From NCBI GenBank assembly GCA_022711715.1, contig JAKLEC010000003.1, positions 1,256 to 65,255 on the forward strand: a DNA stretch of 64,000 bases, in the 5' to 3' direction. Shown here piece after piece: positions 1 to 64,000 of this stretch. A program made the position numbers and the translations under genes. The stretch's first letter is position 1. Each line of letters begins with the position of its first letter. The notes under the pieces were generated by a model. It did not search any database and was not told the DNA's origin. It saw only the letters and a program-made list of their open reading frames with translations. This DNA is from Acidobacteriota bacterium (GTDB lineage: Bacteria > Acidobacteriota > Aminicenantia > UBA2199).

Positions 1-285
1 AAGCGCATGGACATCAACGTTACCCGCGCCATCATCAGGGCCGTCCTCAACGGCGAGCTGGACAAGGCCGGCACGGCCGAGGACAAGACCTTCCACATCA
101 ACATCCCCGTCGCCTGCCCGGGCGTGCCCGCTGAGATCCTGCAGCCGCGCAACACCTGGAAAGACCCCGAGGCTTTCGCCGCCCGGGCGCAGAAGCTGGC
201 CAACGAGTTCAGCGCCCAGTTCGACAAGGTCTACGGCAGCAAGGACCTGCCCGAGGCGGTGCGCCGCCAGTGCCCGGGGAAGTAA
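1..285 (+). CDS. pckA: Phosphoenolpyruvate carboxykinase (ATP), C-terminal fragment; the gene begins upstream of the window
   Basis: The frame is open from base 1. The tail ...ILQPRNTWKDPEAFAARAQKLANEF... matches the conserved C-terminus of ATP-dependent PckA. Confidence 0.85.
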   Translation, partial: KRMDINVTRAIIRAVLNGELDKAGTAEDKTFHINIPVACPGVPAEILQPRNTWKDPEAFAARAQKLANEFSAQFDKVYGSKDLPEAVRRQCPGK

Positions 286-288
286 CCA

Positions 289-519
289 AAGCGAGCTCCC
301 GTGACGCGTAACGCGTGACGCGTGACGCGAAACAACCAGTCGCGAGCCAGGACGAGGGGCGATTATTCTAGGCGATCAACTTCCGCTGAGGAACGCCATC
401 GCAAAAACGAAAACACGAACCATATAGGGGTTCAAAAACTGATTATATTGCGTAATGGTTCATTTCATTGCGGCACCATGTCACGCGTTACGCGTCACGC
501 GTCACGATAGCCCGTTCCG
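289..519. repeat. Inverted heptamer-array hairpin element, copy 1 (GTRACGC class)
   Basis: Left arm 301-329 is GTGACGC GTAACGC GTGACGC GTGACGC G. Right arm 480-506 is the complementary heptamers. 300-326 pairs with 480-506 at 25 of 27 positions. The loop is about 150 nt. The element fills the convergent pckA/tsaD gap. Confidence 0.85.
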
Positions 520-521
520 TT

Positions 522-1559
522 TTATCGGTGCCTCTTGCTCTCGCGGAACGCGGCGCGCGAGTAGGCGTTGAGGCCCAGGTCGTCGTAGCGCTCGCCGGGG
601 AAAGCGGTGTAGCGTTCGTAGCCCAGCCAGGCGATCATGGCGGCGTTGTCGGTGCAGTAGCGGGGCTCGGGCAGATAGAGAGGCAGCCCGCGCGCGCCGC
701 AGGCCTCGGCGAAGCGGCGGCGCAGCAGCGAGTTGCGGCTGACCCCGCCGGAAACGATCAGCGAGCGCACGCCCAGGAAATCGGCCGCCTCGAGGGTCTT
801 GCCCGCCAGGTACTCGACGAGCGACTCCAGGAACGAGGCCAGCAGATCGTGGAAATCGCGGCCCTGCGGCTGGATGTTCCGCTCGCGCGCCAGCCGCAGC
901 AGCGCCGCCTTGTAGCCGGAGAACGAGAAATCCTCGCCGCCGTCGCTCATGCGCGGGCGGGTGAAGCGGAAGCGCCGCGGATCGCCCCGGGCGTAGAGCT
1001 CGTCGAGCAACGGCCCCCCGGGGTAGCCCAAGCCGAAGTGCTTGGCCACCTTGTCCATGACCTCGCCGGCGGCGTCGTCGCGGGTCTTGGCGACCACCCG
1101 GCCGCTGAACTTGGCTTCCTGGTGGAACAGCGTCGTGTGCCCGCCCGACACCACCAGCGCCAGCAGCGGGTAGGCGATGCCGCCGTGGCTGATGAAAGAG
1201 GCCTCGACGTGGGCGGCGACGTGGTCGACGGCCGCCAGCGGCAGCCCGCGGGCCAGGGCCAGCCCTTTGGCGAAGGAGAGGCCCACGAGCAGCGAGCCGA
1301 CCAGGCCCGGCCCCTGTGTCACCGCCAGCAGCCCGATGTCGTCGAGGCTCACGCCGGACCGGCACAGCGCCTCTTGGCAGAGGAGTTCGATGGCCTCGTA
1401 GTGGGTGCGTGCGGCGATCTCCGGCACGATCCCGCCGAAGGGGGCGTGCAGCTCGATCTGCGACTTGATCGCCTCGGAGAGCACGGCGTTCCTCTTCCCT
1501 CTCTCGATGACGGCCACGGCCGTCTCATCGCACGAGGATTCAATGCCCAGGACGTACAA
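522..1559 (-). CDS. tsaD: tRNA N6-adenosine threonylcarbamoyltransferase TsaD (Kae1/Gcp family)
   Basis: N-terminus MYVLGIESSCDETAVAV... and full-length family similarity. TTG start with GGAGG 4 nt upstream. Confidence 0.95.
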   Translation of the reverse strand: MYVLGIESSCDETAVAVIERGKRNAVLSEAIKSQIELHAPFGGIVPEIAARTHYEAIELLCQEALCRSGVSLDDIGLLAVTQGPGLVGSLLVGLSFAKGLALARGLPLAAVDHVAAHVEASFISHGGIAYPLLALVVSGGHTTLFHQEAKFSGRVVAKTRDDAAGEVMDKVAKHFGLGYPGGPLLDELYARGDPRRFRFTRPRMSDGGEDFSFSGYKAALLRLARERNIQPQGRDFHDLLASFLESLVEYLAGKTLEAADFLGVRSLIVSGGVSRNSLLRRRFAEACGARGLPLYLPEPRYCTDNAAMIAWLGYERYTAFPGERYDDLGLNAYSRAAFRESKRHR

Positions 1560-1575
1560 GCGCCCTCCTTCATGT

Positions 1576-1604
1576 CATCATAACAAACCAGAGCTCACCG
1601 GACA
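1576..1604 (-). promoter_or_regulatory. Sigma70-like promoter candidate for tsaD (TTGTCC-17-TATGAT)
   Basis: On the minus strand, TTGTCC is at 1604-1599 and TATGAT at 1581-1576, with a 17-nt spacer. It lies about 15 nt upstream of the tsaD RBS. Confidence 0.4.
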
Positions 1605-1617
1605 ATCAAAAAGAACA

Positions 1618-1800
1618 ATTCGAGCTATCGTGACGCGTAACGCGTGACGCGTGACGCGTAAAGCCATTACCGGAAGCCACAACGAACAAATTACAAAAAG
1701 AGTACTTTTTATAACTTTCCCAGAAAGCAATCCTTGAAGGCTTCAGTTTCGGCTGATGCTCGCTGCTCGTCACGCGTCACGCGTTACGCGTCACGAAGGC
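1618..1800. repeat. Inverted heptamer-array hairpin element, copy 2 (GTRACGC class)
   Basis: 1629-1655 (CGTGACGCGTAACGCGTGACGCGTGAC) is the exact reverse complement of 1769-1795, giving a perfect 27-bp stem. The loop is about 110 nt and AT-richer. Confidence 0.9.
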
Positions 1801-1803
1801 CTG

Positions 1804-2352
1804 TTACCAGTCGCGATAGTACGTCCCGTCCAGCGCCTTCTTTTCCGAGTCGCAGTAAATGTCCCAGACGTTTTCCCCTCCCCAGTCGCGGCTGCCGAGC
1901 TTGTCCTGGAAGGAGCGCAACCCCCAGTCGCCCGTGCCGGTGATGGGGTCGGTGGGGATGTGGCGCAGGAATTTCATCACTCGGGTCTTGTTCTTCTTGT
2001 CCTTGTACTCGATGCCCTTGACCAGGTCCTCCAGCTTGAGCGGATAGCCGTAGGTGTCCTCGTCGACCTCGATCTTGTTCTCGCCCACGAACTTCTTGTA
2101 ATCGTCGATGGCCGTGCGCAGGAGGCGCAGCGCCCGGCGCAGTTCGATCTCCTTGGTGCGCTGGAAGGCGTTGTGGGCCAGGGGGATGGCGGCGGCGGCC
2201 AGGATGCCGATGATCACCGTGACCGTCAGCACCTCGATGAGGGTGAAGCCGCGCGCCGGCGCGCCGGCGCCGGAAGCGGCGGACGCGGCGCGGTTCCGCG
2301 ACGGCATGGCGGCGCCTGGGGACGAGCTAGCGGCCCCCGCCGTGCGGGTCAT
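1804..2352 (-). CDS. Prepilin-type N-terminal cleavage/methylation domain protein (GspG-like pseudopilin)
   Basis: Motif ...ARG/FTLIEVLTVTVIIGILAAAAIP... is followed by a GspG-like globular domain. The start is uncertain: 2352 overlaps the pnp stop, and Met16 at 2307 is the alternative. Confidence 0.8.
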   Translation of the reverse strand: MTRTAGAASSSPGAAMPSRNRAASAASGAGAPARGFTLIEVLTVTVIIGILAAAAIPLAHNAFQRTKEIELRRALRLLRTAIDDYKKFVGENKIEVDEDTYGYPLKLEDLVKGIEYKDKKNKTRVMKFLRHIPTDPITGTGDWGLRSFQDKLGSRDWGGENVWDIYCDSEKKALDGTYYRDW

Positions 2353-4411
2353 CCTCCAATACCTTGTGGCTGAGCTTCATCTTGTTGTCGCGGTCCAGGG
2401 AAAGCACCTTGACGTCGATCACCTGACCCAGCTTGTACTCCTGGCGCGGATCGCGGATGCGCTTGTGCGAGATCTCCGACACGTGCAGCAGGCCGGTGAC
2501 GCCGGGCATGATCTCCACGAACAGGCCGTAGTCCTCGATGCGGTTGATCTTGCCGGTGTACACCTTGTCGACTTCGGGCGAGCCGGTCAGCTCCTCGATG
2601 CGGGCCATGACCTTCTCGCCGAGCTCGCGGTTGGCGGCGGCGATGGAGACCTTGCCGTCGTCCTCGGCGTTGATTTTCACGTTGTAGGTGGCCACGAGCT
2701 CCTTGATGGTCTTGCCGCCCGGGCCGATCAGGTCGCGAATCTTGTCGACGGGGATCATCATGGTGAGGATCACCGGAGCGTACTCGGACAGCTTGGCTGC
2801 CGGCGCCGGGATCGCCGCCTTCATCTTGGCCAGGATGGACTTGTAGGCCGTGGTGGCGTCGTCGATGGTGCGGCGGATGACCTCGTCGGTCAGGCCGCCG
2901 ATCTTGATGTCGAGCTGGATGGCGGTGATGCCTTTCTCGGTGCCGGCGACCTTGAAGTCCATGTCGCCGAAGTGGTCCTCGTAACCGGCGATGTCGGTGA
3001 GCACGGCGAAGTCGTCGCCCTCCTTGACCAGCCCCATGGCGATGCCGGCCACCGGCGCCTTGATGGGCACGCCGGCGTTCATCAGCGCCAGGGTGCCGCC
3101 GCAGACCGTGGCCATGGACGAGGAACCGTTCGACTCCAGGATGTCGGAGACGACGCGGATGGTATAGGGGAAGGTCTCGTTGTCGGGGATCATCAGCTTC
3201 AGTGCCTTCTCGGCCAGGTTACCGTGGCCGATCTCGCGACGGCCGGCGCCGCGCAGGAAGCTGACCTCGCCCACGGAGAAGGGCGGGAAGTTATAGTGCA
3301 GCAGGAACTTCTTCTTGGGCTCCTCGCCGCTGAGCAGGTCGAGGCGCTGGGCGTCGTCCTCGGAGCCCAGGGTGACCGTGGACAGCGACTGCGTCTCGCC
3401 GCGGGTGAAGACGGCCGAGCCATGCACGCGCGGCAGGACGCCCAGCTCGATGGTGATCGGGCGGATCTCGGTGAAGGCGCGGTTGTCGGTACGCCGCTTT
3501 TCCTTCAGCAGCGTCGCACGGAAGACCTCCGCCTCGACGTTCTCGAACGCACCCTTGAGGCTGGCAAGCTCGGATGGATCGTCCTTGCCCTTCTGGATCT
3601 CCTCCATGATGGCCTTGATCTTCAGGCGGCGCAGGACGCGGTCCTGGGTGAAGATGGCGTCGCGGATCTGCGCCGAGAAGCGGGCGCGGATGTCAGCGGT
3701 CAGGGCATCGGTCCCGGGCTTGGCCGCCGGCATGACCTTGTCGGGGTTGACCAGCTCCTTCTGCGCCCGGCAGATGCGGGCGATCACTTCCTTGGCCCGG
3801 CGCAGCCCCTCCAGGAACACCTGGTCGGAAAACTGGTTGCCGCCGGCCTCGAGCATGACCACCTCGGTCTCGGTGCCGGCCACCAGCACGATCATGTCCA
3901 GCTCCTTGCGCATGTCCAGGCCGGGGTTGACGAAATACTGCCCCGCCTTCCAGCCGATCTTGACCGCGGCCAGCGGCGTGGTGAAGGGGATGGTCGAGGA
4001 GAGCAGGGCGGCGGAGGCGCCGATGATGCCCATGGCGTCGTAGTCGATGCTGAAGTCGGCCGACAGCAGCATGGCGATCACCTGCGTGTCGTTGTGGTAG
4101 TTCTCGGGGAACAGCGGCCGGATGGGGCGGTCGATCAGCCGGGAGAGGAGCACTTCCTTCTCCGAGGGCTTGCCCTCGCGCTTGAAGAAGCCGCCGGGGA
4201 TCTTGCCGGCCGAATAGGTGTTCTCGCGGAAGTCGACCATCAGCGGCAGGAAGTCCTGGCCCTCCTTCTCCTCGTCGCGCATGTTGGCGGTGACCAGGAT
4301 CATGTTATCCTTGTAGGTCAGCAGGGCCGAGCCGTTGGACTGGCGCGCCCAGCGGTGGATGTCGATTTTCAGCGTGGAGCCCTCTATCGGGATCTCAATG
4401 GTTTTCTGCAT
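2327..4411 (-). CDS. pnp: Polyribonucleotide nucleotidyltransferase (PNPase)
   Basis: 694 aa with two RNase PH domains plus KH and S1 regions recognisable ([12 protein letters not shown]..., C-terminal S1). Confidence 0.97.
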
Positions 4412-4433
4412 GGTTGTCTCCTAGACGGGCGGA

Positions 4434-4703
4434 TTACTTGCGGAGTTCCAGTTCCTGGATGACCTTGACGTACTTGTCGTAGTCGGTGCGGCGCAGGTAG
4501 TTCAGCAGCTTCTTGCGCGTCGAGACCAGCGTCAGCAACCCCTTGCGCGAGTGGTTGTCCTTCTGGTGCGTCTTGAAATGCTCGGTCAGGTTGCGGATGC
4601 GCTCGGTCAGGACCGCGATCTGCACTTCCGACGAACCGGTGTCCTTCTCGTTTATCTGGAAGCGGCCGATCAGCTTCTGCTTGGTTTCCTTGGTAATGCT
4701 CAC
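4434..4703 (-). CDS. rpsO: 30S ribosomal protein S15
   Basis: (V)[15 protein letters not shown]...[13 protein letters not shown] start at 4703 preceded by GGAGG. The track ORF to 4769 is an upstream extension. Confidence 0.95.
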
Positions 4704-4737
4704 AAAGTCCTCCTGTGTTGATGCGAAGTTAGCCTGT

Positions 4738-4766
4738 ATTTTACCAGAAAACGGCTGCCGTGTAAA
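4738..4766 (-). promoter_or_regulatory. Sigma70-like promoter for rpsO-pnp (TTTACA-17-TAAAAT)
   Basis: On the minus strand, TTTACA is at 4766-4761 and TAAAAT at 4743-4738, with a 17-nt spacer. It lies about 35 nt upstream of the rpsO start. Confidence 0.5.
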
Positions 4767-4790
4767 CAAGCGGGGAGAAAAACGCTTCGA

Positions 4791-6320
4791 TCAGCCCTCG
4801 GCCTGGAATCCGGCGAAGTCGATGTTGTGCTCATCCAGGGTGGTGCCCAGTACCTTGCCCACCCGCGAGAGGGACAGGCTGTAGTCGATCAGCGACTTCA
4901 GCTCGGCGATGCGGGCGTTGGCGAAGTCGCGCTGGTACTGCAGGACCTGGTAGTTGGTCGAGAGGCCGACGGCCAGCTTTTTCTGCTCGGCGGCCAGCTT
5001 CTGTTCGGCCAGCTCGCGCGAGATCCGCGTGGCTTCGACGAGCTTGGCGTTGGTCTCCAGGTCCATGATGATCTGCTTGACCTCGGAATAGACGGTGCTC
5101 TCGGTCTTTTTCAGCGTCAGCAGCGACTGCTCCAGGTTCAGCCGCGCCTGGGCCAGGTCGGCGCGGGCCGAGGCGTTGACTACGGGGACGGAGAGCTGCA
5201 GGCCGAGCGAATAGTTCTCGTACAGGCGCTTCAGCGCGTCGCGCAGCGCGTCGCTCATGCCGCCCCCGACCACGCCGGGGATAGGGATGCCGTTCTTCAG
5301 GGGCATGCCGCTCAGGCCCTGGGTGTAGTAGGACGCCGTCAGCTGCAGGTCAGGCAGGGTCTGGTTGCGGTAGTAGCGCACGTCGATGTTCCTGCTCTTG
5401 AGGTCGAGGCGCACCTGCTCGATGTCGGGCCGCTTGGCCAGGGCCTTCTCGAGGAATTCGTTGAAGTCGGCCTGCCGGGGCCGGAATAGCGGCTGGTCGG
5501 CGGGGACGATCGTCTCCGGCGCCTGGCTGGTGTTCAGGATGCGGCGCAGGTTTTCCTCGTAGGCCTGGATCTGGCTGCGCGCCTGCAGCACCTCGCCCTC
5601 GCGGGCGGCGACCTCGGCCTGGGCGGTGAGGATGTCCATGGGCGCCGAGACGCCGACCCGGACCTGGGTCTCGTTCTGCTTCAGCAGGTCCTTGGCCAGC
5701 TGCAGCGACTTCTCCTTGACCTCCAGGTTCTGGTGGGAATAGACCAGGTTCCAGTAGGCCTCCTCGGTCTGGTAGATGAGATCGATCACCTGCTGGCGCA
5801 GGGTGGCCAGCGACTTGTCCTGGTTGTGGCGGGCGAGGATGATGCTCCGGCGGGTGGCGGTCAGCCCGAAGTTTTTGAGCAGGGGCTGGGACAGGGTGAA
5901 CTGCAGCTGGGAGAAGTAGCGGGGATTGATGTACACGTCGAGCGAGTTGGTCGAGTAGCGGGAGTTCTGCAGCGCGACGTCGAGGCTGCCGCCGATCGGC
6001 AGCTGCTGCTTCAGGCTGAAGCCGTAGGAGACCGACTCGGGCTTCTCGACATCGACGCCGGTGACGATGGAAGCGTTGGGCGTCGTCTGCGACGTCTTGC
6101 GGAAGCTGAACCCCACGCTGGGGATAAAGACGGCCCGGCTCTTGCGCAGCAGCGCCTTGGCGATCTCGGGATTGGCCATCTCGATCTGCAGGTCGAGGTT
6201 GTTCTTCAGGGCCTGGTTGATGACCTCCTCGAGGCTCAGGGACTTGACCGGCCGCTCCTGCGCCGGGCCCAGCAGGGCCAAGAGATGGGCCAGCACGACC
6301 ATCGCGATCATTTTCTTCAT
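4791..6320 (-). CDS. TolC-family outer membrane efflux protein
   Basis: Signal peptide MKKMIAMVVLAHLLALLGPAQE, two repeated OEP halves and coiled-coil-rich sequence. Start chosen at the ATG at 6320, which has an upstream GGAGG. Confidence 0.85.
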   Translation of the reverse strand: MKKMIAMVVLAHLLALLGPAQERPVKSLSLEEVINQALKNNLDLQIEMANPEIAKALLRKSRAVFIPSVGFSFRKTSQTTPNASIVTGVDVEKPESVSYGFSLKQQLPIGGSLDVALQNSRYSTNSLDVYINPRYFSQLQFTLSQPLLKNFGLTATRRSIILARHNQDKSLATLRQQVIDLIYQTEEAYWNLVYSHQNLEVKEKSLQLAKDLLKQNETQVRVGVSAPMDILTAQAEVAAREGEVLQARSQIQAYEENLRRILNTSQAPETIVPADQPLFRPRQADFNEFLEKALAKRPDIEQVRLDLKSRNIDVRYYRNQTLPDLQLTASYYTQGLSGMPLKNGIPIPGVVGGGMSDALRDALKRLYENYSLGLQLSVPVVNASARADLAQARLNLEQSLLTLKKTESTVYSEVKQIIMDLETNAKLVEATRISRELAEQKLAAEQKKLAVGLSTNYQVLQYQRDFANARIAELKSLIDYSLSLSRVGKVLGTTLDEHNIDFAGFQAEG

Positions 6321-6420
6321 CGGACGCCTCCAGCGTAGGAAATCCATACGGAAATAGAACAAAAAAGTTCACCGGGGCTTGCAGGATGCCCCGATATTGG
6401 CGGAAAATTTCAGCGAATGC

Positions 6421-7401
6421 CTACGCCAGGCCCTTTTCGGCCAGCCATTCGTCGTTGTAGATGGTGCTCAGGTAGCGGGAGGCGCCGTCGGGGAAGACGG
6501 TGACGATGCGCGCCGGCCCGTCGAGGCGCTTGGCCAGTTGCCGCACTCCCCACAGGGCCGCGCCGCTCGACCCCCCCACCAGGAGTCCTTCGCGGCGGGC
6601 GATCTCGCGGGCGGTGAGGAACGCCTCGCGATCGGTCACCTGCAGCATGTCGTCGATGTGGGTGAATACGGCGCAGCCGATGAGGAACTCGTCGCCCAGG
6701 CCCTCGATCAGGTAGGGGCCGGGCTTGACCAGTTTCCGGTGATGGAAATAGTCGTGGAAGACCGATCCCAGGGGATCGACGGCGATCACCCGGATGCGCG
6801 GGTCCTTCTCCTTCAGGAAGCGGGCGGTCCCGCCGACGGTGCCGCCGGTGCCGATGCCGGCGACGAAATAATCGATGCGCCCCTCCATCTGCTCCCAGAT
6901 CTCCGGGCCGGTCCCCCGGTAGTGGGCCTCGTTGTTGTCGAGGTTGTTGTGCTGGTCGGGGAAGAAGCAATTGGGGGTCTCCCGGGCCAGGCGCGGCGTG
7001 ATGTTGTTGTAACTGTCGGGATGCTCGGGCGGCAGGGTGCTGTCCACCATGTGGATCTCGACGCCGAGAGCCCGGAGCTGATCCAGCTTCTCGCGGCTGA
7101 TGCGGTCGCGCACCACCACCTTCAGGCGGTACCCCTTTTGCAGGGCGATCAGGGCCAGGCCGAGGGCGGTGTTTCCCGAGGAGTTCTCGATGATCAGGTC
7201 GCCCGGCTTGATCTTTCCCTCCCGTTCGGCCTTCTCGATCATGTAGCGGGCGATGCGGTCCTTGGAGCTGCCCATGGGATTGAGGAATTCCAGCTTGGCG
7301 TAGACCTCGCCGGGGATGTCCTGGGCGATCCGGTTCAGCCGCACCAGCGGCGTGTGGCCGATGACGTCGATGACGCTCTGACAGCAGCGGGCTTTATTCA
7401 T
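6421..7401 (-). CDS. PLP-dependent cysteine synthase / cystathionine beta-synthase family protein
   Basis: GHTPLVRLNR...LEFLNPMGSSKDR (PLP lysine motif)...GTGGT loop. 326 aa with no CBS pair. Confidence 0.85.
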   Translation of the reverse strand: MNKARCCQSVIDVIGHTPLVRLNRIAQDIPGEVYAKLEFLNPMGSSKDRIARYMIEKAEREGKIKPGDLIIENSSGNTALGLALIALQKGYRLKVVVRDRISREKLDQLRALGVEIHMVDSTLPPEHPDSYNNITPRLARETPNCFFPDQHNNLDNNEAHYRGTGPEIWEQMEGRIDYFVAGIGTGGTVGGTARFLKEKDPRIRVIAVDPLGSVFHDYFHHRKLVKPGPYLIEGLGDEFLIGCAVFTHIDDMLQVTDREAFLTAREIARREGLLVGGSSGAALWGVRQLAKRLDGPARIVTVFPDGASRYLSTIYNDEWLAEKGLA

Positions 7402-7442
7402 CGTGACCTCGGGAGGAACGCGAAAATCAAGCGGAAGGGAGG

Positions 7443-7471
7443 ATTTTACTCCAAAAGCAGGGACGAGTAAA
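7443..7471 (-). promoter_or_regulatory. Sigma70-like promoter candidate for the cysteine-synthase-family gene (TTTACT-17-TAAAAT)
   Basis: On the minus strand, TTTACT is at 7471-7466 and TAAAAT at 7448-7443, with a 17-nt spacer. It directly abuts repeat copy 3. Confidence 0.4.
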
Positions 7472-7480
7472 GATGAACCG

Positions 7481-7730
7481 AACTATCGTGACGCGTAACG
7501 CGTGACGCGTGACGAGTAACAGCAATGAAACGATACGGCGTTCAATCGCCGATGACCAACCGTGCTTCCCCGGACGATCAAGCAAGCGGCAGCAGAAAAC
7601 TATGATAAATTGAATGTCCCTGGTTCAATCGGAGCGGAAAAGTCCAATTCGCCGGCTCGGCTTTCCCGTACGCCCTATGCCGTACGCCAAGCTCCTTTCT
7701 TATTACCCGCGCGTTACGCGTCACGATTGC
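7481..7730. repeat. Inverted heptamer-array hairpin element, copy 3 (GTRACGC class)
   Basis: 7485-7502 (ATCGTGACGCGTAACGCG) is the exact reverse complement of 7710-7727. The left array continues to about 7520. The loop of about 190 nt contains CGTACGC CCTATGC CGTACGC heptamers at 7667-7687. Confidence 0.85.
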
Positions 7731-11365: not shown

Positions 11366-13213
11366 CTACCGCTCCCCTGCCTGCTCCAGCCGGCGCACGG
11401 AGGCGATCAGCGGATCGGCCTGCCGGCGGAAGGAGCGCCATTCTTCATAGGTGAGGAGCCGACGGATTGGAAGCAGGAACCGCTCTCCATTCAAATCCAG
11501 CATTTGCGCCGAAAGCCATAACAGCTTGAACTGCTCCACTTGCCGCGGCGGGTCGAACGCCTGCCGGTCCCTCTCCCCCGGCGAGAAAGTCCCATAGAAA
11601 CGGCGCAATTCCCGTCGCGTTTCAGCCCCCAGCCGGCCCCGGGGGATGCAGATCGTCAGATTGGGGTCGAAATAAACAGGGAGCAGATGGGCAAGGAAGC
11701 GCCCGGGCGCCGCCAGGAAACGGGGGGTATAGTGGGTCATGGCGACCACATCGATTCGGTAGCGGTCCATGAAGCGCCTCACGGCCGCGTTATCGCCGCT
11801 TTCCAAGGCGATGAAAAAGGCGCGCAGGTCGGCGCTGCGGGCATTGATCAGCGCGGCATGGCCGTACCAGTAGGGGGTCATTCCCCGGGCCAGCCAGGTG
11901 ACGGCGCTGCACAGTCCCAGGTGGTTGCTCGCCAGGTTGCCGCGGCAGCCGAGCGCATTCAGGATCTCGACCTCACGGACCTGCTCAGCCGGCAGGACGG
12001 AAGCGATCCCGATGCCGGCGGGCAGGAACTCTTCCGCCAATTCCAGGCGCCAGGCGCGATTGATCCGGCCCACCAGGCGCGGGGAGAGCAGGAACAAGCG
12101 CTCCAGCATCAGGAAAATGCAGAGTCCGGCCAGCAGCGCCTGCCCCCACAACCGGCGGCGTGGGCGCCCGGGGCGCAGCCGGGGGTCGGGAGCCAGGGCC
12201 GAGGCGACCATGAGAAAGATCGGCAGGAACGGCAGGGCGCGCTGGTAGAACAGCGCCGGCCCCCCTACCAGCAGCAGCACCCCGAAGAACCACAGCCGGC
12301 CGGAACGGGCAGCCTGGCGCCGCCAGGGGCGGGCGGCCAGCAACGCCGCGGAGATCAAAAAAAAGAGATGGGTGTTCACGCTGACCAGGGCTGCGCTCGT
12401 CGAACGCATCGAACCGGCGGCATATTCGACACGGATCATGTTCACCGGCAAGCTGAGCAAGGCCCGCCACCCCAGCGGATTCACCAGCCAGCCAAGACCG
12501 ATGACGCCCAAATAGAGCGGCCGGCTCGGGACATTCATCGCCCGGCCTCCAGGCCGGGGCAGGAGGGTCCTGGCGTCATCCGCGATGAACAGGGCCGAAA
12601 ACAGCCCGAGACCGAGGCCATAATAGAAAAACAGGGGGTGGCTGTTCACCCAGAGGATTTCCACGGCGACCAGGGCGGCAAGCGTTCCCCCATGAGTTGA
12701 TGGCCGGCGGGCCGGCGCCAAGAGGACCAGCCAGAGAACCAGGAAGGCATAGTTGAACAGGTCGGGACGCAGGACAACCATCCCGGCCATGGCCAGCACC
12801 AGAGCGGCCGCGGCGCTCAGCAACCACATGGGGTCCCTTCGCCGGCGGAAGATCACCGACGTCAGCATAGCTAAAAAAGCCATGAACACGGCGATGCGCA
12901 GCATGTTCAAGCCCAGGAACGATCCGCTCCTGAACGCGAGCCGGAACAACGTGCCGGGGAAAAGGTTCGGATAGATCGCCAGAATGGGTTCCCCCGTCGA
13001 GATGGCGATGGGATCGCTGGTCAAGGCCCGCCCATGCTGCCAGAAATATTCGGCGCCGCGCATGTGCCACCAGCAATCCATGCTGTTGAAGGGAGTGAGG
13101 GAAAAATACAGCGCGGAAAATAGGAAGCAAATGGCCAGGACGACGGCGAGGCGTCGATCACCAGCAGGGCCGGCGGAGCAGCCGAGCGCCTGCGCTTTTT
13201 CCGGCTTGGTCAT
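11366..13213 (-). CDS. Large polytopic membrane protein with a C-terminal soluble domain (possible GT-C-like glycosyltransferase)
   Basis: 615 aa with more than 10 hydrophobic segments. No specific family recognised. Confidence 0.5.
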   Translation of the reverse strand: MTKPEKAQALGCSAGPAGDRRLAVVLAICFLFSALYFSLTPFNSMDCWWHMRGAEYFWQHGRALTSDPIAISTGEPILAIYPNLFPGTLFRLAFRSGSFLGLNMLRIAVFMAFLAMLTSVIFRRRRDPMWLLSAAAALVLAMAGMVVLRPDLFNYAFLVLWLVLLAPARRPSTHGGTLAALVAVEILWVNSHPLFFYYGLGLGLFSALFIADDARTLLPRPGGRAMNVPSRPLYLGVIGLGWLVNPLGWRALLSLPVNMIRVEYAAGSMRSTSAALVSVNTHLFFLISAALLAARPWRRQAARSGRLWFFGVLLLVGGPALFYQRALPFLPIFLMVASALAPDPRLRPGRPRRRLWGQALLAGLCIFLMLERLFLLSPRLVGRINRAWRLELAEEFLPAGIGIASVLPAEQVREVEILNALGCRGNLASNHLGLCSAVTWLARGMTPYWYGHAALINARSADLRAFFIALESGDNAAVRRFMDRYRIDVVAMTHYTPRFLAAPGRFLAHLLPVYFDPNLTICIPRGRLGAETRRELRRFYGTFSPGERDRQAFDPPRQVEQFKLLWLSAQMLDLNGERFLLPIRRLLTYEEWRSFRRQADPLIASVRRLEQAGER

Positions 13214-14569: not shown

Positions 14570-16108
14570 TCAGGATCCGCCGGGAGCAGCATCCCCGCCA
14601 GTCAACCGGGCGGACGGTTGCGTCTTGCCCTGCAGCCTGACCATGGGGCCCGCGTTCGTGGCGCTATAGACCCGCCCGAGTTCCCGCACATGGTAATACG
14701 GCTCATAACGGTCGGATAAATAGAGGGGGCGGCAATGGATATACTTCTCGATGATCTCGGTCATGTCCCGGACCGGGTCTGGCGACGCGTGGACGATGGA
14801 ATCGATGAATTGGGGTATGGTGATGTCGGGACGCCCGCCATATATCTTCTGGCCATAGATCAAGGCCATGCCGGGGTTGAAATCCGTGATAATGACGGCA
14901 TTCTTCTCCGCCCTGGCGAAGGCATCCTGGACATATTTCCGGGCGCTGTATTCCCATCTTTTGTCCGGCCTGAAGAAATATTCAACCGAATCCCGGTAGG
15001 GCAGCTGGCGAATATGGATCAGTTTCAAGCCAGAATGCTTGTAGATCGAAGGAAAGGCGTAATAGGTGAAAAAGGGGACCGTAACCATGGACAAATACAA
15101 AAGATTCTTGAAGAATTTCTTGGGCTGGATTTTTTCTTCCAGCAGGGAGCGGTCCAATCCGAACATGACCCATATGCCGAAAACCAGATAAGAAGGGATA
15201 AGCAGGGCGAACTGCCTTTGCAGGAAATAGGTGAACGCGAAGAAGCTGTTGAGCAGGAAAAAGAAAAAAAGCGAGAGACTGAGGATCCGATCCCTCCGCA
15301 TGAGTTTTCCCAGCCCCAGCAGTCCGGCCAGAATGGCAAAAGACGGGAATTGGTAGATCAAATAGAAGGGGAATTTCGCCATTTCCCTGATGGTTTTCTT
15401 GACCTCAAAGAAAGTAGCAAAAACGCCGGATGTCTCTGAAAAGACAGCCCGGCTGAAATCGCTGAACCCCATGCTGAGGAGCGGGATCAGGAACATCGGG
15501 GAGATGCCGATCAGAAAACAAAGAGGGGCGAGCAATGCCATTCTCAACCGGAAACGAGTGCCCAGAAAACATAGCATTGCCGTCGTCGGCAGAAGCAAGA
15601 AGGACGCCGTGTGGTTGTACAAGGCCAGCCCGGAAAAAAAGAAGGCCGAACAAAAGCAGGCCAACCGCTTCGTGTTTCGGAATTTCACGGCTGAAAGCAG
15701 GATCAGGACGGTGAAAAATGCATTCAGCGAATACGTTTCGTTGATGAGCGAATAGAGCCAGAACGAATGGGTGATGGCAAGCAGCAGGCAACCCAGCAAG
15801 CTTGCTTTGGGCGGGAGGCCCAGTTCTCTCAGCAGGTGAAACAATGCCAGGAGGGCGGCGGCGGCAAAAAAGGCCGACATCAGGTTCTGGGTATAGGCCA
15901 GTTCAAAGGGAAGCTTCGCGAACAGGATGCCCAACAAGGTATGGAGCGGATGATAGCCGTGGCCATAGCCGGCAAAATCGCGCTCCTGGACAAAAATGGC
16001 CAATTTGGCGCTGTCGGACCAGAGCATCGTGGGGGCCAGGGTGCCGAGATACAGGCCGAATGGGACAAAAAACGAAAGGATTGAGTACAACGGCTTTGCG
16101 GATTTCAT
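14570..16108 (-). CDS. DUF2723/TMEM260-like polytopic membrane protein (putative GT-C glycosyltransferase)
   Basis: MKSAKPLYSILSFFVPFGLYLGTLAPTMLWSDSAKLAIF... followed by many TM segments. Start at 16108. The track ORF to 16516 runs through the tRNA-Arg gene on the opposite strand. Confidence 0.55.
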   Translation of the reverse strand: MKSAKPLYSILSFFVPFGLYLGTLAPTMLWSDSAKLAIFVQERDFAGYGHGYHPLHTLLGILFAKLPFELAYTQNLMSAFFAAAALLALFHLLRELGLPPKASLLGCLLLAITHSFWLYSLINETYSLNAFFTVLILLSAVKFRNTKRLACFCSAFFFSGLALYNHTASFLLLPTTAMLCFLGTRFRLRMALLAPLCFLIGISPMFLIPLLSMGFSDFSRAVFSETSGVFATFFEVKKTIREMAKFPFYLIYQFPSFAILAGLLGLGKLMRRDRILSLSLFFFFLLNSFFAFTYFLQRQFALLIPSYLVFGIWVMFGLDRSLLEEKIQPKKFFKNLLYLSMVTVPFFTYYAFPSIYKHSGLKLIHIRQLPYRDSVEYFFRPDKRWEYSARKYVQDAFARAEKNAVIITDFNPGMALIYGQKIYGGRPDITIPQFIDSIVHASPDPVRDMTEIIEKYIHCRPLYLSDRYEPYYHVRELGRVYSATNAGPMVRLQGKTQPSARLTGGDAAPGGS

Positions 16109-16781: not shown

Positions 16782-16975
16782 AACGAGCATTCGTGACGCG
16801 TGACGCGTGACACGTGACAAGTAGCCGCAATCATGGATCTTCTGGATCTGGCATTGCGGATTTCATTTGCATATGGAAATGATCAATTCTGGTTCTTGCC
16901 TGGCACAGAAAAGGCCTCTCTCGTGCAGTTACTCGTTACGCGTCACGCGTAACGCGTCACGATAGGTCGTTTCGA
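16782..16975. repeat. Inverted heptamer-array hairpin element, copy 4 (GTRACGC class, degenerate)
   Basis: Left arm 16793-16822 is GTGACGC GTGACGC GTGACAC GTGACAA GT. Right arm 16935-16965 is GTTACGC GTCACGC GTAACGC GTCACGATAG. The outer flanks AACGAGCAT... and ...GATAGGTCGTT are shared with the other copies. Confidence 0.8.
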
Positions 16976-54714: not shown

Positions 54715-54895
54715 CCAAGAAATTTTTGTGATAGTGGTAGTGATAGTGGTAGTAACAGCAATAAAAAGCTTTAATTAGAATCTGGCGAAAGTATCTTCAC
54801 TTTTACCTTTTTACTTTTACCTTTTACCTTTGGCTTCAGTTGTCATTACAGGGCTTGCCACTACCACTACCACTATCACTACCACTTAGAATTCA
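54715..54895. repeat. Inverted hexamer-array hairpin element, copy 1 (GTGRTA class)
   Basis: Left arm 54728-54757 is GTGATA GTGGTA GTGATA GTGGTA GTAACA. Right arm 54858-54887 is CCACTA CCACTA CCACTA TCACTA CCACTT. 54734-54753 is the exact reverse complement of 54866-54885 (20 bp). The interior holds a (C)TTTTAC(C) tandem tract at 54795-54833. Confidence 0.85.
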
Positions 54896-63810: not shown

Positions 63811-63911
63811 GATCTCCGTCCGCGCCGGGCGCGTTGCGCGCTCCGTTCGTACTCAATGTACCACAAGTCGGCCCCTTTGTAAATTTGGCTCTTCTCAGAA
63901 ATTTGAAGAAA

Positions 63912-64000
63912 GTGATAGTGGTAGTGATAATGGTAGTTAAACACACTCGACCGATTTCTTTATGCTTTAAAGACCAAAATAAGTGCGGCTCTTTTTACAA
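63912..64000. repeat. Inverted hexamer-array element, copy 2 (GTGRTA class), truncated by the window end
   Basis: 63912-63941 is GTGATA GTGGTA GTGATA ATGGTA GTTAAA. It is preceded by AGAAATTT, as in the 54.7-kb copy. The partner arm would lie beyond base 64000. Confidence 0.6.

What the first reader, a model, noticed from the sequence alone, without database searches (positions are those of the whole stretch)
1618..1800. Copy 2: perfect 27-bp heptamer stem between a pseudopilin stop codon and the tsaD promoter
1629-1655 is the exact reverse complement of 1769-1795. The element begins 4 nt after the pseudopilin stop (1804). It ends about 14 nt before a TTGTCC-17-TATGAT promoter candidate for tsaD (1576-1604). 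A perfect 27-bp stem in an otherwise diverged loop implies recent origin or selection on pairing. The position fits an insulator between two co-oriented but functionally unrelated genes.
Basis: seen in the sequence. Interest (0 to 1): 0.6.

Follow-up and report, generated by a model that had tools for sequence, protein, structure and literature searches.

The report
One copy of a heptamer-armed repeat
The perfect 29-bp hairpin between the pseudopilin and tsaD genes is real, but it is one of more than 100 copies of an undescribed, genus-restricted repeat whose ends are fixed arrays of the 7-base unit CGTGACG, and nothing shows it is an insulator built for this locus.

Summary
Window 1628-1656 is the exact reverse complement of 1768-1796 (29 nt). 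The element fills the gap between the pseudopilin stop codon and a tsaD promoter motif.

- The arms are the consensus of a family: four copies in the window, and 58 arm pairs plus about 90 unpaired arrays in this 2.1-Mb draft genome. The motif was found only in this genus.
- Sixteen of 57 elements have perfect runs of at least 27 nt.
- An arm matches its own partner no better than arms of other elements (permutation p = 0.41), so there is no sign of selection on pairing.
- The 111-nt core has no relative in 28 genomes, so this is not a fresh copy of a whole element.
- The closest relative (92-95% nucleotide identity in the flanking genes) carries a hairpin with different heptamers at the same site. 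Seven of 13 syntenic genomes have no strong hairpin there.
- All 13 keep the extended -10 promoter motif, so tsaD probably has its own promoter with or without the element.

No target-site duplication, partner transposase or Rfam match was found. The genome's two Y1 transposases have a separate repeat family. RNA data could not be obtained. This is an ordinary copy of an unusual, unpublished repeat family.

The parts
1804..2352 (-). Pseudopilin gene (prepilin-type N-terminal methylation motif). Stop codon TAA at 1804-1806. The true start is probably downstream of 2352.
   Evidence: ORF; Pfam N_methyl 4e-7; the C-terminus aligns to residue 182 in all congeners.
1796..1805 (.). Stop-proximal outer terminus of the element (AAGGCCTGTT, a degenerate match to the family's ATAGnTCGtt). 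It overlaps the stop codon.
   Evidence: Terminus logo from 116 ends: conservation extends 10 nt outside the heptamers.
1768..1796 (.). Stop-proximal arm: CGTCACG CGTCACG CGTTACG CGTCACG (+A). This is the exact family consensus 'CCTC'.
1657..1767 (.). Core or loop, 111 nt, 42% GC. It is a singleton sequence and contains a weak A/U-rich inner hairpin.
   Evidence: No match elsewhere in this genome or in 27 congeners; fold; no Rfam hit at E<=1.
1628..1656 (.). Promoter-proximal arm: (T)CGTGACG CGTAACG CGTGACG CGTGACG. This is the exact family consensus 'GAGG'.
1619..1628 (.). Promoter-proximal outer terminus TTCGAGCTAT (family consensus aaCGAnCwaT).
   Evidence: logo; listing.
1577..1605 (-). 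tsaD promoter motif: -35 TTGTCC (1600-1605), 17-nt spacer, extended -10 TGT-TATGAT (1577-1585). The Shine-Dalgarno AGGAGG lies at 1564-1569.
   Evidence: Scan. The motif is conserved in 13 of 13 syntenic congeners whether or not an element is present (sequences).
522..1559 (-). tsaD gene (TTG start at 1557-1559).
   Evidence: Pfam TsaD 9e-80.
300..506 (.). Copy 1 of the same family, between the convergent pckA and tsaD genes.
7487..7725 (.). Copy 3 of the same family. Its right arm is reduced to about two units.
16792..16961 (.). Copy 4 of the same family, with degenerate arms.

Best explanation
Window 1619-1805 is one ordinary member of a very abundant, genus-restricted family of non-coding foldback repeats.

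SHOWN
- Each member has terminal inverted repeats of about 55 nt. They consist of a weakly conserved 10-nt outer piece (aaCGAnCwaT), four good heptamers in a fixed order (CGTGACG-CGTAACG-CGTGACG-CGTGACG), and about two decaying units (CGTGACA-AGTAACA-GCAAT).
- These enclose an unconstrained, AT-drifted core of 24-498 nt.
- The arm sequence is what is maintained. It is identical across dozens of loci and across species, while the cores are unrelated or 59-79% alike. The two arms of one element do not co-vary.
- Elements lie flush against stop codons and leave downstream promoters intact.
- At this locus the site was occupied in the ancestor of a seven-genome clade and has since been remodelled, with different heptamer families, nested hairpins and remnants in different lineages.

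INFERRED
- The arms are recognition sequences for an unidentified trans-acting protein that installs, copies or refreshes them. It is not a transposase that leaves target-site duplications, and it is not obviously the genome's Y1 transposases.
- When the pseudopilin gene is transcribed into the element, the 29-bp stem forms at the 3' end of the mRNA. As with REP hairpins, it would protect the upstream message from 3' exonucleases and may impede read-through.
- tsaD is expressed from its own conserved extended -10 promoter. Any insulating effect is therefore a by-product and not the reason the element is there.
For: - Family size and layout: 206 arrays of at least 2 units, 58 F..R pairs against 2 R..F.
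- Taxonomic range: the motif is in 20 of 25 genomes of this genus and 0 of 16 from other families of the class.
- Termini: outer and inner conservation logos.
- Arms versus cores: arms 28/28 identical where cores are 59-66% identical. Core GC is 47.5%, against 55.9% for other spacers and 67.5% for coding DNA.
- No within-element covariation.
- Copy 2's core is unique.
- Placement: median 10 nt from arm to stop codon and 59 nt from arm to start codon. Convergent spacers are enriched (19/51, p = 1.8e-4). In co-directional spacers the element is nearer the upstream stop in 21/25 cases (p = 9e-4).
- Site history: G005 is 92-95% identical in the genes but unalignable in the spacer. The tsaD tree shows an occupied clade of 7 and an empty clade of 6. 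The outer end of the right arm sits 22-23 nt from the -35 box in five genomes.
- Dynamics: orthologous arms differ by exact 7-nt indels, and a whole four-unit module is present in one species and absent in the other.
- The promoter is conserved independently of the element.
Against: - No RNA data, so the hairpin's effect on the transcript is inference by analogy.
- No trans-acting factor was identified.
- The genome is an 82%-complete draft that breaks at these repeats, so a partner gene or a source copy for the core could be missing.
- The gene coordinates behind the placement statistics come from my own crude gene caller.
- The strict stop-codon adjacency and the enrichment in convergent spacers would also fit a selected terminator role for the family as a whole.
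Confidence: 0.8

Rival explanations
1. The element is a locus-specific insulator or terminator. It is kept between the pseudopilin and tsaD genes by selection on base pairing, to stop read-through.
For: It fills the gap between the stop codon and the promoter exactly. It forms a very stable RNA hairpin. Six of seven genomes in the occupied clade carry a strong hairpin of some kind at the site, and the seventh only a short 11-bp stem.
Against: There is no arm covariation. The arms equal the family consensus. The closest relative has a different element at the site. Seven of 13 syntenic genomes have only 23-154 nt of unstructured spacer with the same promoter. No U-tract or compact loop is present.
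Confidence: 0.07
2. It is a classical MITE: a recent cut- or copy-and-paste insertion of a whole non-autonomous element, mobilised by a DDE transposase that recognises the terminal inverted repeats.
For: It has long terminal inverted repeats, a size of 150-350 bp and an AT-richer core. The family has many copies, and presence varies between species. A few element pairs share cores at 69-79% identity.
Against: No target-site duplication of 2-8 bp at any offset in 58 elements. Copy 2's core has no relative anywhere. The arms are far better conserved than the cores. No long element with these ends was found in this genome, in a candidate G005 locus or in viral contigs.
Confidence: 0.1
3. It is a REPIN-type doublet mobilised by the genome's RAYT-like Y1 (HUH) transposases.
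For: The genome has two 303-306-aa Y1_Tnp genes. The elements lack target-site duplications, are extragenic, form hairpins and sit at gene 3' ends, as REPs do.
Against: Both Y1 genes are bracketed by a different inverted repeat, GGGnCGGnACTTTAATT.... That repeat forms its own set of about 10 REPIN-like doublets, usually kilobases from any CGTNACG array. The arms are tandem heptamers and not single imperfect palindromes. Loop length ranges from 24 to 498 nt.
Confidence: 0.07
4. The heptamer arrays are host-used DNA or RNA protein-binding sites, a gene-end 'punctuation' system such as factor-dependent termination or nucleoid organisation. The whole family would then be kept by selection on arm sequence.
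For: The same 28-nt GAGG arrangement is kept at dozens of loci and in several species, while the cores drift. The elements sit flush against stop codons and are enriched twofold in convergent spacers. Read inward, the arms carry TGA or TAA in all three frames, and 13 of 63 adjacent genes terminate inside an arm.
Against: About 15 different heptamer families coexist and substitute for each other at the same site, which is hard to reconcile with one binding protein. Copy number ranges from 0 to 128 among congeners. Many sites in relatives have no element.
Confidence: 0.15

Closest known systems
REP / BIME / REPIN elements (enterobacteria, Pseudomonas; RAYT-associated; e.g. PMC2817692, listed)
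   Same: They are extragenic, present in hundreds of copies and form hairpins. They lack target-site duplications and sit mostly at gene 3' ends and between convergent genes. Presence varies between relatives. The expected RNA effect is the same: a 3' hairpin that stabilises the upstream message (from established knowledge of REPs).
   Different: The arms here are ordered arrays of four 7-nt units plus outer and inner pieces, not a single 20-40-nt imperfect palindrome. The loop varies from 24 to 498 nt and its sequence is unique. The Y1 transposases of this genome are flanked by a different repeat with its own doublets.
Bacterial MITEs (e.g. Correia/NEMIS, MITEAba12; review PMC10969869, listed)
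   Same: Terminal inverted repeats, small size, non-coding, an AT-richer interior, intergenic location.
   Different: No target-site duplication. No matching insertion sequence was found. The interiors are mostly unrelated between copies. The repeats are internally periodic.
Intergenic heptamer tandem repeats: TAACTGA repeats of Beggiatoaceae, cyanobacteria and Bacteroidetes (MacGregor 2015, PMC4679880), and cyanobacterial STRR sequences
   Same: Short arrays (2-6 units) of a 7-nt unit that contains stop codons. They are abundant in intergenic DNA, lineage-patchy and of unknown origin.
   Different: The TAACTGA sets are direct repeats (169 direct, one indirect), mostly a few nucleotides upstream of start codons (abstract). 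Here the arrays come as inverted pairs around a core and sit next to stop codons.
Foldback (FB) transposons of eukaryotes (recalled from general knowledge, not tested here)
   Same: Long terminal inverted repeats that are themselves made of short tandem subrepeats. Copy length varies, the central loop is variable or unrelated, and most copies are non-coding.
   Different: FB elements are eukaryotic and much longer, have target-site duplications and, in some copies, coding capacity. No homology is implied.
Rho-independent (intrinsic) terminators
   Same: A GC-rich stem directly after a stop codon. The element is symmetric, so it could act on both strands in convergent spacers.
   Different: The stem is 29 bp and encloses 111 nt. 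No U-tract follows it: the downstream sequence is AUAGCUCGAAUUG... The scan found none.

Membership tests
REPIN / REP-RAYT system | The repeat unit is a short imperfect palindrome, and two inverted units form the doublet. | tested here: not met
   Each arm is a tandem array of four heptamers plus decaying units. The pair does form a long hairpin, but the loop is 24-498 nt and variable.
REPIN / REP-RAYT system | A RAYT (Y1 HUH transposase) gene is flanked by the same repeat. | tested here: not met
   Two Y1_Tnp genes are present. Both are flanked by GGGnCGGnACTTTAATT-type inverted repeats, not CGTGACG arrays. That repeat has its own doublets away from the arrays.
REPIN / REP-RAYT system | Extragenic, high copy number, no target-site duplication. 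| tested here: met
   58 pairs plus about 90 unpaired arrays, all intergenic or overlapping only stop codons. No target-site duplication.
MITE | Terminal inverted repeats and a small non-coding body. | tested here: met
   Terminal inverted repeats of about 55 nt. Total length about 100-550 nt.
MITE | A target-site duplication flanks the element. | tested here: not met
   No excess of 2-8-bp direct repeats at offsets 0-14, compared with shuffled partners, in 58 elements.
MITE | A cognate autonomous element has the same terminal inverted repeats. | tested here: inconclusive
   Wide F..R pairs in this genome enclose ordinary high-GC genes. The G005 candidate L206 holds housekeeping genes. The arm 28-mer is absent from viral contigs. 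The draft genomes may lack multi-copy insertion sequences, and no broad transposase screen was done.
MITE | Copies share a homologous body derived from a source copy. | tested here: not met
   Copy 2's core is unique in 28 genomes. Only a few element pairs share cores at 69-79% identity.
Intrinsic terminator | A compact GC-rich stem-loop (loop 3-8 nt) followed at once by a U-tract. | tested here: not met
   Zero terminator-like sites in 1300-2400. The loop is 111 nt, and no T-run lies within 10 nt of the stem.
Heptamer simple-sequence repeats (STRR / TAACTGA type) | Tandem direct arrays of a 7-nt unit in intergenic DNA. | tested here: met
   488 period-7 arrays, against 9 at period 8 and 19 at period 9. 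The CGTGACG/CGTAACG family makes up 162 of them.
Heptamer simple-sequence repeats (STRR / TAACTGA type) | Arrays vary freely by slippage, with no fixed unit order and no paired inverted partner. | tested here: not met
   The unit order GAGG is fixed in 40 of 96 arms and shared with G005. Arms are paired F..R 58 times against 2 R..F. Exact 7-nt indels between orthologous arms show that slippage also occurs.
Known structured RNA (Rfam) | A match to a curated covariance model. | tested here: not met
   Only two tRNAs in the window at gathering score. No hit at E<=1 in 1540-1840.

The most novel reading that the evidence does not exclude
The heptamer arms may be sequence-specific modules that are installed or refreshed independently of the DNA between them, by an unidentified enzyme system. 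That system would be neither a transposase that leaves target-site duplications nor the resident REPIN-RAYT pair. This would be a new kind of bacterial foldback element. Its ends stay at an exact 28-nt consensus across loci and species while the interiors decay, and different heptamer families replace each other at fixed gene-end sites. The host may use them as generic gene-end punctuation.
Probability: 0.2. Interest if true: 0.75.

Novelty: new variant of a known kind. Interest (0 to 1): 0.42.

Why it matters
This locus on its own matters little: it is one ordinary copy, and the insulator idea is not needed to explain it.

The family is more interesting. It shows a pattern that current models of bacterial dispersed repeats (REPIN-RAYT, MITE-IS, slippage-prone simple repeats) do not explain well:
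- The terminal arrays have a fixed unit order and are held at consensus in dozens of loci and several species.
- They surround interiors that are unique and drifting towards AT.
- There are no target-site duplications.
- The elements sit flush against stop codons.
- Related heptamer families replace each other at the same site between genomes that are 92-95% identical in the flanking genes.

Finding the factor that recognises or writes these arrays would explain a large share of the non-coding DNA in this uncultured lineage. It might also shed light on the long-unexplained heptamer repeats of cyanobacteria and Beggiatoaceae.

Tried and rejected
1. A fuzzy arm regex confused left- and right-type arms, which differ by one base per unit. 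I discarded it and redid the census by classifying the central base.
2. RAYT association: tested and rejected.
3. Target-site duplications: none.
4. Autonomous element: wide arm pairs in this genome enclose normal genes. The G005-specific locus L206, with arms 1.6 kb apart, holds MnmA-, Dus- and lipoprotein-type housekeeping ORFs.
5. Viral contigs: no exact match to the 28-mer arm.
6. The search for related loci with the pseudopilin on metagenome contigs and genome contigs returned only distant GspG-type pilins (at most 52% identity). A scan with the arm pattern would have been a better use.
7. Rfam at gathering and at E<=1: nothing.
8. Literature: the motif string gives only coincidental primer hits, and no paper covers repeats in Aminicenantes.
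10. The census of ACGCGT (the MluI-type palindrome inside the arms) was uninformative because the arrays themselves inflate the expectation.
11. Taxon name: I did not verify 'Aminicenantes', which comes from earlier notes. The nearest named pilin hits outside the genus are Acidobacteriota MAGs.

Full report
**Observation**

The window holds a perfect 29-nt inverted repeat, 1628-1656 against 1768-1796, separated by 111 nt. Each arm is four tandem heptamers: CGTGACG-CGTAACG-CGTGACG-CGTGACG on the left and the complement on the right. In the sense of the flanking genes, which lie on the minus strand, the RNA of 1600-1815 folds at -99.5 kcal/mol. The mean for 200 dinucleotide shuffles is -64.0 +/- 4.8 (z = -7.4).

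The pseudopilin ORF (Pfam N_methyl) stops at 1804-1806, 7 nt from the arm. tsaD (Pfam TsaD 9e-80) starts with TTG at 1557-1559, behind AGGAGG at 1564-1569. The promoter scan finds TTGTCC-17-TATGAT at 1605-1577.

**It is one member of a large family**

The arm motif occurs 31 times in the window against 0.01 expected. It defines four elements, at 300-506, 1629-1795, 7487-7725 and 16792-16961.

In the whole draft genome (2.09 Mb, 138 contigs, 82% complete, 66% GC) I count 206 arrays of at least two units:
- 58 are arranged as left-type then right-type pairs within 700 nt, and only 2 in the opposite order.
- The cores are 24-498 nt long (median 168).
- About 90 arrays are unpaired. Many have decayed partners or lie at contig ends.

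Period-7 arrays of any unit number 488, against 9 at period 8 and 19 at period 9. The CGTGACG/CGTAACG family is the largest, at 162, among about 15 recurrent heptamer families.

The 21-nt arm motif is present in 20 of 25 genomes of the same genus, at 1 to 128 hits, with this genome the richest. It is present in 0 of 16 genomes from other families of the class, and the reversed control pattern gives zero hits everywhere. It is absent from viral contigs, from Rfam and, as a string, from the searchable literature.

**Anatomy**

A logo of 116 termini shows weak conservation for 10 nt outside the heptamers (aaCGAnCwaT) and none beyond that. Inside the four good units the periodicity decays through CGTGACA, AGTAACA and GCAAT. 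The terminal inverted repeat is therefore about 55 nt long. No direct repeat of 2-8 bp is enriched at any offset from 0 to 14, so there is no target-site duplication.

The cores average 47.5% GC, against 55.9% in other spacers and 67.5% in coding DNA. Only a few cores resemble each other, the best at 79% over 247 nt.

**The 'perfect stem' argument**

The most common left arm is the exact GAGG form (40 of 96) and the most common right arm its complement CCTC (25 of 109). Copy 2 simply has both. Sixteen of 57 elements have perfect runs of at least 27 nt, and seven have at least 28.

The direct test for selection on pairing asks whether an arm is more complementary to its own partner than to the partners of other elements. 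It is not:
- Heptamer region: 24.75 vs 24.71 of 28, permutation p = 0.41.
- The four variable centre bases: p = 0.31.
- Outer 10 nt: p = 0.99.

'Recent origin' as a whole-element copy is also unsupported. Copy 2's 111-nt core (42% GC) has no match elsewhere in this genome or in 27 congeners. Among elements that do share cores, the arms are 28/28 identical while the cores are 59-66% identical.

The thing being maintained is therefore each arm's sequence, and it is maintained family-wide. The same GAGG/CCTC order dominates in the closest relative, G005. Simple within-genome homogenisation would let species drift apart. This pattern points instead to a conserved recognition or templating factor. 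That step is inference.

**The same site in relatives**

The pseudopilin and tsaD genes are adjacent in 13 of 26 genus loci examined, with spacers of 102-595 nt.

Reading the sequences printed, all 13 keep TGn-TAT(G/C)AT just upstream of the Shine-Dalgarno sequence, and 12 of 13 keep TTGnnn 17 nt upstream. In four genomes this promoter drives an extra gene of about 149 codons, with no Pfam match, that precedes tsaD. The promoter call is thus supported by conservation, and it exists with or without the element.

The interval from the stop codon to the -35 box is 198-280 nt and strongly structured (z <= -4.4) in six genomes. It is 23-154 nt with no exceptional structure (z from -2.5 to +1.7) in seven.

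On a tsaD tree the occupied genomes form one clade of seven, and the six genomes of the sister clade are all empty (this fork has 83/93 support). Within the occupied clade the occupant differs:
- This genome has the CGTGACG pair.
- Its sister G005 has an (ACGGCNT)n array plus a (GTAAAAG)n/(CTTTTAC)n hairpin.
- G043 has a short GTGAAAA-type stem.
- G002, G003, G013 and G041 have a (CCAAATT)n/(AATTTGG)n hairpin nested next to a two-unit remnant, CGTTACGCGTCACG.

The outer end of that remnant lies 22-23 nt from the -35 box, exactly as in this genome. The right arm is therefore probably old at this site, yet in this genome both arms are at exact consensus.

The G005 contig is collinear with window 1-7493 at 92-95% nucleotide identity in the genes. 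The spacers at copy 1 and copy 2 do not align at all. The breakpoints fall at the stop codons on one side and at the promoter or the neighbouring gene end on the other.

**Turnover elsewhere**

I compared 20 G005 sites that carry CGTGACG arms with this genome. Three patterns appear:
- Orthologous arms that differ by exact 7-nt unit gains or losses (L213, L215).
- A whole four-unit module plus about 23 nt present in G005 and absent here, next to a shared (TCGTGAT)n array (L202).
- Sites where one genome has a 130-330-nt element and the other has 40-80 nt.

Arms therefore persist across speciation, slip by whole units, and are gained, lost or replaced as modules.

**Placement**

These statistics use a self-trained gene caller that gave 1,513 genes, 78% coding, and reproduced the window's genes.
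- The heptamer arm lies a median of 10 nt from an adjacent stop codon. There are peaks at 8-10 nt, where the outer terminus abuts the stop, and at -5, -12 and -19, where the stop lies inside the arm. Read inward, CGTGACG and CGTAACG give TGA or TAA in all three frames.
- The arm lies a median of 59 nt from an adjacent start codon.
- Convergent spacers hold 19 of 51 elements, against 16% of all spacers (p = 1.8e-4). Divergent spacers are neither enriched nor avoided (7 of 51).
- In co-directional spacers the element is nearer the upstream stop in 21 of 25 cases (p = 9e-4).

This is the placement known for REP-type repeats. It fits insertion into very short ancestral spacers with selection against disrupting promoters. 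It also fits a family-wide role at gene 3' ends. The present data cannot separate these readings.

**Mobilising enzyme**

There are two Y1_Tnp genes of 303-306 codons. Both are bracketed by a different inverted repeat, GGGnCGGnACTTTAATT.... That repeat forms about 10 REPIN-like doublets of its own, usually kilobases from any CGTNACG array. The genome therefore has a conventional REPIN-RAYT-type system that is separate from the heptamer-armed elements.

Wide arm pairs enclose ordinary genes. tsaD itself sits between copy 1 and copy 2. A G005-specific candidate locus holds housekeeping genes. No partner was found, but draft bins often lack multi-copy insertion sequences, and I did not run a broad transposase screen.

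**Function at this locus**

There is no canonical intrinsic terminator: the stem encloses 111 nt and no U-tract follows it. I infer from REP biology, without having tested it, that transcription of the pseudopilin gene into the element yields a 3' hairpin that protects the upstream mRNA and may reduce read-through. tsaD would start from its own extended -10 promoter.

Seven syntenic relatives manage with a short unstructured spacer and the same promoter. Any insulating effect is therefore dispensable and most likely incidental.

**Comparison with known systems**

The element behaves like REP/REPIN repeats in placement, hairpin formation and lack of target-site duplications. It resembles MITEs in having terminal inverted repeats and a small non-coding body. 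It fails defining tests of both: the RAYT genes are flanked by a different repeat, there is no target-site duplication, and the bodies are not shared.

It belongs to the poorly understood class of bacterial heptamer repeats. The closest described case is the TAACTGA direct repeats of Beggiatoaceae, cyanobacteria and Bacteroidetes (PMC4679880). Those are direct arrays just upstream of start codons. These are ordered, inverted pairs next to stop codons. In architecture it recalls eukaryotic foldback transposons; that comparison is from memory and was not tested.

**Verdict**

The promoter is supported. Selection on pairing, recent origin and a locus-specific insulator role are not. The copy is ordinary, and the family is a new variant of a known kind of dispersed repeat. 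Earlier notes of this scan reached a similar family-level view.
- the covariation test
- the singleton-core result
- the negative target-site-duplication and RAYT tests
- the promoter conservation
- the site history on a tree

Noticed in passing
window 480-506 and 1629-1656: tsaD (522-1559) is bracketed by the right arm of copy 1 and the left arm of copy 2. These are 27-28-nt inverted repeats 1.1 kb apart and could in principle mediate inversion of the gene. All syntenic relatives examined keep the same orientation.
   Followed up: partly
L019, L021, L024, L025 (genomes G012, G008, G015, G011), between the conserved promoter and tsaD: Four congeners carry an extra gene of about 149 codons (MKKK... 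signal-like N-terminus, no Pfam match) between the promoter and tsaD. It is absent from this genome's clade.
   Followed up: partly
G000 C51:58083-58994 (L005 1435-2346) and C1:83266-83583 region (L006): Two 303-306-aa Y1 (IS200-like, HUH) transposase genes, each bracketed by GGGnCGGnACTTTAATT-type inverted repeats. The same repeat forms about 10 REPIN-like doublets elsewhere, for example C60:4659-4784, 12011-12137 and 15081-15204, and C62:67110-67175 just beyond the window's end.
   Followed up: partly
whole genome G000: Period-7 tandem arrays are about 50 times more common than period-8 arrays (488 vs 9). About 15 heptamer families recur. Roughly half contain GTGA or GTAA and so give stop codons in every frame.
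   Followed up: partly
window 54728-54886 and 63911-63937: Clusters of other short-unit arrays: (GTGATA)n, (CTTTTAC)n, (CCACTA)n and (AGTGAT)n. (CTTTTAC)n is the unit that forms the hairpin at the copy-2 site in the closest relative, G005.
   Followed up: no
L197 (G005:C80) end = window 7493; G000 contigs C29, C34, C65, C92: Draft contigs in this genus often end exactly inside heptamer arms. The repeats break the assemblies, so copy numbers are underestimates.
   Followed up: no
window 1564-1585 and the orthologous sites in 12 congeners: The tsaD promoter has an extended -10 (TGn-TATGAT) only about 7 nt upstream of AGGAGG, which implies a 5' leader of roughly 11-14 nt. This geometry is conserved across the genus. 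It may explain why repeats can sit so close to promoters without harm.
   Followed up: partly
window 2327-2352: The annotated pseudopilin start at 2352 overlaps the end of pnp and gives a leader of about 35 aa before the G|FTLIE cleavage motif. Relatives align only from about residue 30, so the true start is probably further downstream.
   Followed up: no
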